This document shows, piece after piece, positions 27,601 to 30,600 of a stretch of 64,000 nt of DNA. Position numbers: made by a program. This DNA is from an uncultured Planctomycetota bacterium (GTDB lineage: Bacteria > Planctomycetota > Planctomycetia > Gemmatales > Gemmataceae). Positions within the stretch are counted from its first letter, which is position 1. Each line of letters begins with the position of its first letter. The DNA is taken from NCBI GenBank assembly GCA_963849325.1, contig CAWKHF010000001.1, forward strand, positions 320,001-384,000. Reading direction: 5' to 3'.

Positions 27601-30600
27601 GAGTCCTCCCCCATGAAAGCGATTCAGCTCCAGCAACCAGGTCATTTCGAGCCGATTAGCATCGCCGAGCCGAACAAGCCCGGACCCGGCGAAGCGCTGG
27701 TGCGCGTGCATCGCGTCGGCATCTGCGGCACCGACATCAGCGGCTACCTCGGCAAGATGCCCTTCTACAGCTATCCGCGCATCCCCGGCCACGAACTGGG
27801 CGTCGAGGTGGTCGAAGTCGGCGACGGCGTCACCGCGGTCCAGGCGGGCCAGCGCTGCTCGATCGAGCCGTACATGAATTGCCAGAAGTGTTTCGCCTGC
27901 CGCCGCGGCGGCGGCAACTGCTGCGAGGAACTGCAAGTCCTTGGCGTCCACACCGACGGCGGACTGCGGCCGTACTTTCTCGTGCCGGCCCGCAAACTGC
28001 ATCCGTCAAGCAAACTGACGCTCGATCAGCTCGCCCTCGTCGAGACGCTCGGCATCGGCTGCCACGCGGTTGATCGCGGCAAGCCGCAGTCAGGCGAATA
28101 CGCCCTCATCGTCGGCGCCGGGCCGATCGGCCTGTCGGTCCTTGAGTTCGTCAAGTTGACCGGGGCGAAGATCCTCGTGCTCGACCTCAACGAAAAACGC
28201 CTCGATTTCTGCAAGAAACAGATGGGCGTCCAACACACCATCCGTTTCCGGGGCGACGGTTCGGAATTGAAGGAACTGCAGGAAATCACGGAGGGCGCCC
28301 TGGCCTCGGTGGTGTTCGACGCGACCGGCAGTACCAAATCGATGTGCAACGCCTTTAACTATGTCGCCCACACCGGCCGGCTCGTGTTCGTCGGCATCGT
28401 CACCGACGACATTCACTTTCCCGACCCGTTGTTGCATCGCCGCGAGATGACCGTGTTCGCCTCGCGCAACGCCCTGCCGGCGGACTTCCGCCGCATCATC
28501 GGCCTGATCGAAGAAGGACGGATCGACACCCGGCCATGGATCACGCACCGCACGTCGTTCGCCGACCTGATCGGCAACTTCCCGTCGTACACCAAGGCCG
28601 AGACCGGCGTCCTCAAGGCGATGGTCGAGGTCGATTGACCTTCGGGGGGAGCAATCATGATCCGTTCGTGTGTCACGATCAGTCTGGTGCCGGAAGCGCG
28701 GGGCGGGCCATTCGTCTTCTGGGATGGCCTGGCCGCCGGCTGCCGGCAAGCGAAGGAACTGGGCTTCGACGCCATCGAGGTGTTCGCGCCGTCGCCGGCC
28801 GGCGTCGATGCCAACGGGCTGCGGCGACTGCTCGACGAGACCGGCCTGAAGGTGGCCGCCTTCGGTACGGGAGCGGGCTGGTTGTTGCAGCGCCTGACGC
28901 TGACCGCTCCGGAGGCCGGCAAGCGGGCCGCCGCCCGCGAGTTCATCCGCGCCGTCATCGACCTGGCCGGCCAGTTCCATGCTCCGGCCATCATCGGCTC
29001 GATGCAGGGCCGGCACGGCGAGGGCGTGGACCGGACAGCGGCCCTGGGCCATCTCGCCGAGGGGATCAATGACCTCGGCGAGCACGCCGGCAAGTACGGG
29101 GTGCCGCTCCTGTTCGAGCCGCTCAATCGCTACGAAACGAACCTCGTCAACACCATCGAGGACGGAGTTCATCTGCTCAATACGCTGTCCACGAGGAACG
29201 TCAGTCTGCTGGCCGACCTGTTTCACATGAACATTGAGGAGACGGACCCGGCGGCGGCACTGCGGCAGGGCGCGGGACACATCGGCCACGTGCATTTCGT
29301 CGATTCCAACCGCCGCCCGGCAGGGTGCGGGCACACCGACTTCGCGCCCATCGTCCGAGCGCTGCGGGACACCGGCTATCAGGGGTACGTCTCGGCCGAG
29401 GCGCTGCCGTACCCCGACCCGGTCGAGGCGGCACGACGGACGATCGCGGCGTATCGTCAGTATTTCGCGGCGTGAGGGGGACGACGATCGTGCTGAAGCA
29501 TCCGCTCATTCATCCGCACATCAACGCCGTCCTCGGCCAGGCCGGACATCATGCCAAGGTCCTCATCGCCGATGGGAATTATCCGGCATCCTCGAAGAAG
29601 GGGCCGCACGCCGAGATCGTCAGCCTCAACCTGTCGCCCGGCATCGTCACCTGCACGCAAGTGCTGGAGGCGCTGCTGACCGCCATCCCCATTGAGGCGG
29701 CCAATACTATGATGTATGAGACGACCGGGCCGTATGCCCTGACGGAAGATCCGCCGGTGTGGACGGAGTTTCGCCGGGCGCTCGCCGCGGCGAAGCTCAA
29801 CCTGAAGCTCCAGCCCATCGAGAAATGGGAATTTTACCAGGCGGTCGAGACGCCGGACCACGTCTTGACGATTCAAACCGCCGATCAGCAGCGCTTCGCC
29901 AACCTGCTGTTGACCATTGGCGTCCGCATGGATTAAGGCGAGAGAAGAAGAGCCTCACGCAAAGGCGCAAAGAACGCAAAGAAGACAAAGGAGAGGAGAA
30001 TGGGAGAAAATGAGATTGCGCGCATCGTCGTGGATGCGGCTTACAGGATTCATACGACGATCGGGCCGGGGTTGCTGGAGTCGGCGTATGAGGCTATCCT
30101 CGCATACGAACTCGGCAAACGTGGTCTGCACATCCTGCGACAGGTTCGCGTGCCCATCGTCTATGAGGAAGTCAACCTTGACGAAGGCTTCCGGGCTGAT
30201 CTGATTGTTGAGAACCTGGTCATTATTGAACTAAAGGCAGTAGAACAAGTCATTCCCGTCCACAAAAAGCAGCTTCTCACCTACCTGCGGTTGACCGGCA
30301 AGAAACTCGGTCTCCTCATCAACTTCAACGAGGATAAGATCAAGGACGGCATCAGCCGAGTCGTCAACGGCCTCTAACTCTTTCCTGTCTTTCTTTGCGT
30401 CCTTTGCGCCTTTGCGTGAGGCTCTTTTTGACAATATCCTGTGAGGGGCGAACATGGAACATCGTGACCTGGGCCGAACCGGATTGAAGCTGCCGGTGCT
30501 GAGCTTCGGCGCCTCGTCGCTGGGCCAGGAATTTCGGCCAGTGGACCTCAACGAGGCCATGCGAGCCGTGCATGTGGCCCTGGACCTGGGCATGAATTTC

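What a model noticed while it worked through the whole genome (the two positions that open the first line are those of the whole stretch)
29948..30426. Hairpin repeat families are the empty forms of cassettes that carry four-helix-bundle, GxxExxY, DUF559 or Y1 genes betwe [...]
Several of the genome's long-hairpin families have a filled form in which one small gene lies between the same two inverted arms: GxxExxY at C1:350000-350377 and four-helix-bundle genes at C5:884410-884832 and C6:188650-189015; a Y1 transposase remnant at C2:573628 sits beside a further family. Each protein family goes with its own arm type (7-nt units for four-helix bundles, about 9-nt units for GxxExxY), and the filled cassettes come and go at orthologous sites in the genus. 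So proteins that are not known transposases mark mobile inverted-arm cassettes, of which the hairpins are the gene-less derivatives.
Evidence so far: Arms seen directly; families by TIGR04256/TIGR02436/PF01797. 29 of 29 near-full-length genes tested in the genus (16 four-helix bundle, 13 GxxExxY, 3 of them from this genome; picked from 22 and 17 matches) have inverted arms scoring >=17, against 0 of 120 control genes of like size (max 13). Orthologous sites in this genome: one holds the same arms without the gene (C12:340919-341107, vs L151), four have neither gene nor arm (vs L124, L138, L153/157, L149/154), four hold a hairpin of another family (vs L129, L136, L143, L148). Gene-less copies with both arms: 11 of 23, 43 of 69, 42 of 55 and 9 of 10 loci. 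In congeners further families of this genome flank Y1 genes (L173, L174, L181, L183, L [...]
(Added by a program. Inside this text positions count along the whole contig: contig position 320,001 is position 1 of the stretch shown here. "Call 12" and the like, gene names such as g00115 and contig names such as C1 are that model's own, and its searches are not shown. The text may have been shortened before it was handed on; [...] marks where a part breaks off. The agent that wrote the report below was given it as the finding of a first reader that could run no searches.)

Follow-up and report, generated by a model that had tools for sequence, protein, structure and literature searches.

The report
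Gene cassettes that seed hairpin repeats
A small nuclease-like gene sits between two inverted repeats whose gene-less copies are scattered through this bacterium's genome, and the same pairing of one small gene with its own repeat family holds for several unrelated proteins, which suggests that proteins other than known transposases spread and overwrite these repeats.

Summary
Confirmed: a GxxExxY (PD-(D/E)XK) gene at 30000-30377 lies between 39-nt inverted arms; 30 gene-less doublets of these arms occur genome-wide. Two four-helix-bundle genes have the same layout with 7-nt arms. New here: arm abundance follows the resident gene. One heptamer word has 190 matches in this genome, which holds its gene, and 0 in 10 congeners; over seven words p = 2e-5 to 2e-3. 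Arm word also follows protein clade. Orthologous junctions are re-occupied by different families (28 of 34; 53). Cassettes sit at unrelated sites with homology ending at the arms. Against: moves are old, no gene remnants in 400 loops, some gene holders lack expansions, Y1 genes are nearly always present, and no activity is shown. It behaves like REPIN-RAYT systems but fails their defining Y1 test. The Y1 part and the rRNA intervening-sequence layout are in print; I found no paper on the rest. The scan noted GxxExxY and four-helix-bundle cassettes before on other DNA.

The parts
29490..29936 (+). Upstream host gene, RbsD/FucU family; its stop lies 8 nt before the left arm
   Evidence: PF05025 E 4.7e-30
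29945..29983 (+). Left arm: short purine-rich head, then three roughly 9-nt units (word CGCAAAG)
   Evidence: same arm in 30 gene-less doublets
29984..29999 (+). Inner purine-rich flank with the gene's ribosome-binding site; predicted to pair with the flank behind the stop
   Evidence: RNA fold z -5.6; 8 of 11 nt of the SD window paired; prediction only
30000..30377 (+). GxxExxY gene, 125 aa, PD-(D/E)XK fold with E27, D67, E77, K79, Q91, Y95 conserved; GC 53% against 61-63% in the neighbours
30378..30390 (+). Inner pyrimidine-rich flank that extends the stem
30391..30429 (-). Right arm, inverted copy of the left arm
30454..31401 (+). Downstream host gene, aldo/keto reductase; directly behind RbsD/FucU in congener G002
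   Evidence: PF00248 E 3e-49

Best explanation
A set of two-part repeat systems that work like REPIN-RAYT but with other proteins. A small gene (GxxExxY nuclease, four-helix bundle, probably DUF559, besides the known Y1) travels with inverted arms built from its own tandem word. SHOWN: gene and word are co-inherited; the unit has changed sites with its ends at the arms; gene-less doublets of a word are most abundant where its gene resides; junctions just behind stop codons are re-occupied by different families. INFERRED: the cassette has no promoter of its own, is read from the host transcript and is damped when the 3' arm folds back over its ribosome-binding site; the protein binds its tandem word as an oligomer on hairpin or single-stranded nucleic acid; GxxExxY nicks or resects there, and host repair or template switching copies the doublet into another exposed hairpin or gene end, usually replacing the resident one, with no long target duplication. 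The four-helix bundle, with no known catalytic role, would act as a binding or annealing factor with a host or Y1 nuclease. The closed stem makes the insert cheap inside operons.
For: Copy number follows the gene. GGGAATA: 190 matches here, 0 in 10 congeners. TTCTGAG: 208 here, at most 12 elsewhere. These are the two commonest heptamer arrays of the genome, 116 and 101 against 20 for the next. CGCAAAG: 51 here, at most 5 elsewhere. CACAGAG: 185, 87, 33 in the three holders, at most 25 elsewhere. The holder ranks first for 6 of 7 words; permutation p 2e-5, and 0.002 when holder sets are swapped among words. Word follows protein: 19 of 23 relatives at >=65% identity against 3 of 35 below 58%; 30 label changes on a 106-row tree against 55.6 shuffled. 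The 21-mer arm searched alone led to 1 GxxExxY cassette, 26 hairpins and no four-helix-bundle or DUF559 gene in 72 loci with room. Cassettes 79-96% alike sit at unrelated sites with homology ending at or about 10 nt beyond the arms. Site re-use: odds ratio 4.8-11 over 319 junctions, 28 of 34 doubly occupied sites with different families, while only 31 of 1357 clusters in this genome mix families. Purifying selection, dN/dS about 0.03-0.2; catalytic residues conserved in >=90% of 80 proteins. Upstream gene in the same sense in 84 of 94 GxxExxY and 22 of 22 four-helix-bundle loci called, against 165 of 210 controls. The same behaviours are reported for REPIN-RAYT.
Against: No activity is shown. 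G008, G094 and G187 hold intact cassettes but only 2-5 arm pairs. Large families exist without their gene: CACGGAAAA 48 matches here, CGCCAAG 46 in G010, TAGTCCG 27 and 24 in G006 and G002; these assemblies are 64-91% complete. Y1 genes occur in all 10 congeners and in 9 of 10 other GxxExxY-rich genomes tested, so a Y1 acting in trans is not excluded. Eleven related, incomplete genomes are not independent, and I took the words from the genes. Kin share labels on the tree. No gene remnant in 400 loops. Filled cassettes moved long ago; the only near-identical pair in one genome looks like an integron cassette. The four-helix bundle has no known nuclease site.
Confidence: 0.58

Rival explanations
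1. Passenger model: the cassette only brings the template. Y1 (RAYT/TIRYT) enzymes or host processes (template switching, gene conversion, slippage) copy any long hairpin, and the enclosed gene rides along or does an unrelated job.
For: Y1 genes are nearly always present. All four classes use the same junctions, which fits one shared engine. Some holders lack expansions and some expansions lack holders. Unit numbers of the two arms vary without clear correlation (rho -0.09 and 0.23), as slippage would give.
Against: It does not explain why the word tracks protein clade across distant hosts, why the proteins are under purifying selection with an intact active site, or why the two biggest heptamer families are exactly those with a resident gene. 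The only Y1 found in this assembly is frameshifted. RAYT-REP pairs are reported as sequence-specific.
Confidence: 0.22
2. RNA-level element like the 23S rRNA intervening sequences: the stem is cut out (RNase III) or bound in mRNA, the protein is an RNA-binding regulator or processing factor, and the doublets are a selected regulon or a set of terminators; spread may pass through RNA.
For: Same layout and same four-helix-bundle family as the Coxiella IVS. Hairpins start at the upstream stop (median 0.5 nt for 7-nt arms, 7.5 nt for 9-nt arms) and avoid divergent gaps (8 of 123 and 9 of 123 against 524 of 2816). Sense bias. Avd relatives partner a reverse transcriptase (role recalled). Heptamer arrays before start codons were proposed as translational signals.
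Against: No clear excess of G-U over A-C mismatches on the transcribed strand (45 vs 32, 20 vs 17, 46 vs 45). Unrelated sequences replace each other at one junction, which argues against a sequence-specific regulon. The GxxExxY fold neighbours are mostly DNases.
Confidence: 0.13
3. Small selfish genes insert into loops of hairpins that were there first; the hairpins are host elements and not derivatives.
For: Hairpins do insert into loops of other hairpins (L484-L490; four clear cases here). No gene remnants in loops.
Against: Relatives of the protein from unrelated metagenomes carry the same word. The closest of 20 relatives of the C6 protein, from another family of the order, has like arms (L065, 54%), while the word is absent from all 10 congeners. 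Homology between cassettes at different sites includes the arms.
Confidence: 0.05

Closest known systems
REPIN-RAYT systems and BIMEs (10.1101/2021.07.10.451892, passages read; 10.1101/2024.10.14.618302, passages and Results section read; PMC6006769, passages)
   Same: One or few genes flanked by their own repeats; many extragenic doublets forming hairpins; population follows the cognate gene; the same extragenic space is overwritten by another type; BIME-like arrays around the gene (G008).
   Different: The protein is not an HUH/Y1 transposase but a PD-(D/E)XK nuclease or an Avd-like helical bundle. Arms are tandem 7- or 9-nt words, not self-palindromic REPs. The gene has changed sites and is patchy, whereas RAYTs are reported not to jump. 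Overwriting here crosses protein families.
TIRtrons / TIRYT (PMC3733652, passages read)
   Same: Gene between long inverted repeats that also form dispersed families and dimers; covers the Y1-linked families of this genome (22 of 33 congener Y1 matches have arms; families 0, 1, 5, 7, 9, 11, 20 match).
   Different: Described only for tyrosine transposase genes.
23S rRNA intervening sequences with an S23p / 23S_rRNA_IVP ORF (PMC4990558, passages; 10.1101/2024.02.27.582315, passages)
   Same: A four-helix-bundle gene enclosed by a terminal stem; ORF-bearing and ORF-less forms at the same sites; sporadic distribution.
   Different: Here the units lie between protein genes, have tandem-word arms, come with dozens of gene-less copies and also carry GxxExxY genes; RNase III excision is untested.
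Intergenic heptamer arrays of Beggiatoaceae, cyanobacteria and Bacteroidetes (PMC4679880, passages; STRR name from the search listing, and recall)
   Same: 7-nt tandem arrays at gene junctions, strain-specific, origin unexplained; a mobile repeat-binding protein was suggested.
   Different: My term searches of that paper found no four-helix-bundle or GxxExxY link; the arrays there are mostly single, not inverted pairs. Whether they belong to this system was not tested.
MITEs of DDE insertion sequences (recalled)
   Same: Short non-autonomous units with terminal inverted repeats and a rarer filled form.
   Different: No DDE transposase; no flanking direct repeat of 10 nt or more in 356 hairpins; loops are mostly unique.

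Membership tests
REPIN-RAYT | Associated gene encodes an HUH/Y1 tyrosine transposase | tested here: not met
   Gene is TIGR04256/PF13366 with a restriction-endonuclease-like fold; the other two are TIGR02436
REPIN-RAYT | Many non-autonomous extragenic doublets forming hairpins | tested here: met
   30 doublets of this family; about 1300 long hairpins genome-wide
REPIN-RAYT | Each arm is a short self-palindromic REP | tested here: not met
   Arms are tandem words of period 7 or about 9; judged from the sequences
REPIN-RAYT | Repeat population follows the cognate gene across genomes | tested here: met
   exceptions
REPIN-RAYT | Gene does not jump and stays in one extragenic space | tested here: not met
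   Related cassettes at unrelated sites; up to 17 matches per genome; some sites are shared between congeners
REPIN-RAYT | Protein binds and cleaves its repeats | not testable with these tools
   Needs biochemistry
TIRtron/TIRYT (Y1-linked families of this genome only) | Y1 gene between inverted repeats that form a dispersed family | tested here: met
   22 of 33 congener Y1 matches score >=17; arms match seven families of this genome
23S rRNA intervening sequence | Located in an rRNA gene | tested here: not met
   Between protein genes; no Rfam match in 29800-30600
23S rRNA intervening sequence | Terminal stem enclosing an ORF | tested here: met
23S rRNA intervening sequence | Excision from RNA by RNase III | not testable with these tools
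   No sequencing run was listed
MITE of a DDE insertion sequence | Target-site duplication | tested here: inconclusive
   No direct repeat >=10 nt in 184 + 172 hairpins and none seen at cassette ends; 2-4 nt duplications cannot be judged at 80-85% identity between genomes
MITE of a DDE insertion sequence | Filled form encodes a DDE transposase | tested here: not met
PD-(D/E)XK nucleases | Fold and catalytic E, D, E-x-K residues | tested here: met
   Model pLDDT 96; best matches Z 8.3, rmsd 3.3, 99 aligned (3ijm) and Z 7.8, rmsd 4.0, 101 aligned (Cas4 4ic1), no stand-out; residues conserved in >=90% of 80
PD-(D/E)XK nucleases | Nuclease activity and substrate | not testable with these tools
   Listed as unknown in PMC3424549 (table row read)
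DGR accessory protein Avd (for the two four-helix-bundle genes) | Score above the NF033474 cut-off | tested here: not met
   42 and 21 bits against 80
DGR accessory protein Avd (for the two four-helix-bundle genes) | Neighbouring reverse transcriptase and template repeat | not tested
   Not searched

The most novel reading that the evidence does not exclude
Bacteria carry a whole guild of miniature replicators in which unrelated small proteins (a Cas4/RecB-like nuclease, a Vsr-like nuclease, a Y1 enzyme and an Avd-like four-helix bundle with no nuclease fold) each recognise their own tandem-word hairpin and overwrite rival hairpins at the same gene ends. The four-helix bundle would then be a new kind of mobilising protein, and the likely source of the unexplained heptamer arrays and of ORF-carrying rRNA intervening sequences.
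Probability: 0.3. Interest if true: 0.9.

Novelty: new variant of a known kind. Interest (0 to 1): 0.72.

Why it matters
TIGR04256 and TIGR02436 are large, widespread families without a function (80 of 151 phylum genomes pass the GxxExxY cut-off). The data give each protein a named candidate substrate, its own arm word, with built-in non-cognate controls, so the question becomes a simple binding, cleavage and mobility test. If true, REPIN-type repeat populations do not need a transposase of a known class. The origin of heptamer arrays and of ORF-carrying intervening sequences would have a candidate cause. About a quarter of the conserved junctions examined in this genome (77 of 319) would be shaped by competing elements. 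Small sequence-specific proteins whose target word varies with clade would also be of interest as tools.

Tried and rejected
Sequencing runs: none was listed, so expression, excision and strain variation were not seen. Homodimer prediction: no answer. Single-sequence fold failed, pLDDT 37; repeated with the alignment. No solved structure by sequence; no Foldseek match at E <= 0.001; the Atlas returned only GxxExxY clusters. No Rfam match. Fuzzy-regex scan timed out and was replaced. The first orientation caller was no better than chance (148 of 300); its counts were discarded and the test redone with a codon model (196 of 210 correct; 16 upstream sides of 110 GxxExxY loci, 4 of 26 four-helix-bundle loci and 90 of 300 controls stayed uncalled). 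Loop-sharing scores for heptamer families were confounded by arm residues and are not used. One dN/dS row (akr G000/G002) was out of frame and is ignored. Gene remnants in loops: none among 400 hairpins of this genome or 12 long-loop congener hairpins, which proved to be nested hairpins. Long target duplications: none for 7- or 9-nt families. The 99% duplicate in G163 was rejected as evidence of arm-driven movement because attC-like sites flank it (judged by eye). An outer shared motif at about a third of this family's copies was considered as an IS end; it also borders family 17 and no transposase link was sought. The class labels are rough, so only same/different family counts are used. Searching for a Y1-free genome with many doublets gave G094, which has only 2 pairs: uninformative. 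Literature: 10 searches found no paper linking GxxExxY, TIGR02436 or DUF559 genes to dispersed hairpins. The library lacks most subscription papers; I read no supplements, and those of PMC3733652 and PMC6006769 could list such flanks.
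Full report
1. The observation. The window holds a 125-aa gene at 30000-30377 between an RbsD/FucU gene and an aldo/keto reductase gene, all on the + strand. It is a GxxExxY protein (TIGR04256, PF13366), the only one in the assembly. Inverted arms of 39 nt, 95% complementary, enclose it. As RNA the stem runs to about 50 pairs and covers the ribosome-binding site (z -5.6); in 13 of 18 cassettes at least 5 of 11 nt of the SD window pair with the 3' flank (prediction). The same arm pair occurs 30 times without the gene. By eye about ten of these share a loop sequence, so whole doublets have been copied. The host is a 65% GC bacterium with an 85% complete assembly; earlier scan notes call it a Gemmataceae planctomycete (not checked).

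2. The genome's hairpins. A genome-wide scan found 1309 long inverted repeats, with 29 families of three or more. They fall into four classes: REP-like arms, 7- or 8-nt tandem arms, roughly 9-nt tandem arms, and C-rich/G-rich arms. Two four-helix-bundle genes lie between 7-nt arms, and a frameshifted Y1 gene lies between family-20 arms. No DUF559 gene was found, but the fourth class matches the flank of a congener's DUF559 gene over 38 nt at 100%, and 6 of 11 DUF559 loci match it by blastn. With my own rough gene calls, 7- and 9-nt hairpins begin at the upstream stop codon (medians 0.5 and 7.5 nt) and avoid divergent gaps.

3. Arms around the genes elsewhere. Inverted-arm scores >=17 were found at 10 of 11 GxxExxY and 10 of 10 four-helix-bundle loci of the genus, at 49 of 93 GxxExxY loci across the phylum (2 loci with short flanks dropped), at 19 of 26 four-helix-bundle loci, and at 0 of 300 control genes. 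Many lower-scoring loci still show the words, as doublets on one or both sides. DUF559 genes show the motif upstream by eye in all 11 loci, but facing arms in only 2.

4. The word follows the protein. Of 80 metagenome relatives, 69 had full flanks. The window's word occurred three or more times at 19 of 23 loci with >=65% protein identity, 6 of 11 at 58-64% and 3 of 35 below. On a quick tree of 106 labelled proteins (35 of 141 left out as broken or unlabelled) the five words need 30 changes against 55.6 shuffled; kin share labels, so this shows co-inheritance, not recognition. In reverse, the 21-nt arm matched 117 loci in many phyla before the scan hit its limit. Of 72 with room, 26 were hairpins, 1 a GxxExxY cassette, 45 unpaired, and none held a four-helix-bundle or DUF559 gene.

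5. Abundance follows the resident gene. Exact word counts in the 11 genus genomes, gene holders first: CGCAAAG 51 and 5, others at most 5; CACAGAG 185, 87, 33, others at most 25; CACGGAAAA 55, others 48 and 23; CGCCAAG 41 and 31, others 46, 20, 18; TTCTGAG 208, others at most 12; TAGTCCG 35, others 27 and 24; GGGAATA 190, others 0 (heptamer matches overlap). After removing the genes' own arms, p = 0.0005 for the four GxxExxY words. Counting G008's variant-arm gene and G001's broken genes as holders gives 0.002; all seven words give 2e-5; swapping holder sets among words gives 0.002. The genomes are related and 64-97% complete, so these values overstate. Counter-examples: G008, G094 and G187 hold intact cassettes with few copies, and several large families have no gene in their assembly.

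6. Sites. The window's junction is empty in G002, holds an array of three doublets plus the gene in G008, doublets only in G004, and another hairpin with an IS in G009. G002 is closer to this genome than G008 and the two genes differ at 83% of synonymous sites against 55% for the neighbouring host gene, so this is an old insertion with later loss, or two arrivals. The C6 cassette's junction holds four different things in four congeners and nothing in a fifth. Of 30 filled congener loci, 20 mapped to 16 sites here: 6 hold nothing, 6 a hairpin of another family, 1 a related word, 1 another four-helix-bundle cassette, 1 the same cassette, 1 another gene. With 1.6 of G002's 9.8 Mb, 319 of 5086 junctions were orthologous: 34 had a hairpin in both genomes, 43 here only, 34 there only, 208 in neither (odds ratio 4.8; 11 at a laxer threshold; 6.6 among roomy junctions), and 28 of the 34 were different families. 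Within this genome only 31 of 1357 clusters mix families, so newcomers mostly replace residents; nested cases exist. Related cassettes lie at unrelated sites with homology ending at the arms: L008/L027/L010 (79-85%), L175/L177 (91%), L139/L145 (96%). No long target duplication was found.

7. The protein. The alignment-based model (pLDDT 96) has a restriction-endonuclease-like fold. The best matches are Uma2-like, type IIG, Cas4 and Hjc proteins with no stand-out. E27, D67, E77, K79, Q91 and Y95 are kept in at least 90% of 80 sequences; reading Q91-x3-Y95 as the RecB/Cas4 motif is recalled. dN is far below dS in all 10 pairs. The four-helix bundles keep Q, R, N and E columns and resemble Avd below its cut-off.

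8. Mechanism. Shown: co-inheritance of gene and word, movement of the unit in the past, abundance tied to the resident gene, replacement at shared junctions, selection on the protein. Inferred: expression by read-through, word recognition by the protein, nicking or annealing on hairpin or single-stranded substrates, copying by host repair. I put this at 0.58. A passenger model with Y1 or host machinery gets 0.22, an RNA-level IVS-like role 0.13, and gene capture by older hairpins 0.05. 'Derivative' is supported at family level only; no deletion intermediate was found.

9. Relation to what is known. It works like REPIN-RAYT: population follows the gene and spaces are overwritten. It is not a member, because the Y1, REP-arm and non-jumping tests fail. 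The Y1-linked families are TIRtrons. The four-helix-bundle gene in a stem is known from 23S rRNA intervening sequences. PF13366 is listed as of unknown function with many transfers. 'GxxExxY' occurs in 2 listed papers; the one I opened mentions it only beside a reverse transcriptase, and the other I saw as a listing only. Ten searches found no account of the non-Y1 cassettes with dispersed doublets; papers outside the library and unread supplements could hold one. The scan itself noted GxxExxY cassettes in at least 18 genomes and four-helix-bundle cassettes in others; these are unchecked notes and not support.

10. Verdict. Real; a new variant of a known kind, with a 0.3 chance that it is a new class of mobilising proteins. 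Interest 0.72.

Noticed in passing
window 24596-26713: An EF-G-like gene behind rpsG is spread over several reading frames; frameshifts or assembly errors.
   Followed up: no
window 26733-27419 (-): DUF29 gene with a small ORF behind it, opposite to the flanking genes.
   Followed up: no
window 11475-11561, 1219-1314, 49658-49724 and ten more: Thirteen further hairpins of families 0, 1, 3, 7 and 16 lie in the window.
   Followed up: partly
G000 C6:524034-524116: A heptamer hairpin lies in frame inside a gene; G002 has a DUF559-type hairpin at the same spot.
   Followed up: partly
G000 C3:20149-20254: A copy of the window's family appears to interrupt a histidine-kinase coding sequence, with no open frame through it on that strand (gene identity judged from the flanks).
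   Followed up: partly
G000 C5:764430: A DUF559-type hairpin is flanked by a 25-nt direct repeat, present once in G002; 5 of 44 of this class have repeats >=10 nt, some only arm residue.
   Followed up: partly
L484-L487, L489, L490: Russian-doll nesting of one hairpin family in the loop of another, in places with the old loop fully replaced.
   Followed up: partly
L480-L483, L488 (G010): A further family with 6-nt units sits inside 9-nt hairpins; its partner gene is unknown.
   Followed up: no
L163, L164 (G163): A GxxExxY cassette with arms is duplicated at 99% between attC-like sites, so these units may also ride in integrons (by eye).
   Followed up: partly
L069, L071, L072, L089: One junction, apparently pilB-pilC by the flanking translations, holds three different four-helix-bundle subtypes with three different words in four genomes.
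   Followed up: partly
L040/L033 (G009), L529 (G002): Insertion sequences sit within or beside hairpins at the same junctions that cassettes use.
   Followed up: no
L064, L066, L070, L073, L090: Four-helix-bundle cassettes often run from the upstream stop codon to within a few bases of the next start codon, so the folded stem would restore the original gene junction (by eye).
   Followed up: partly
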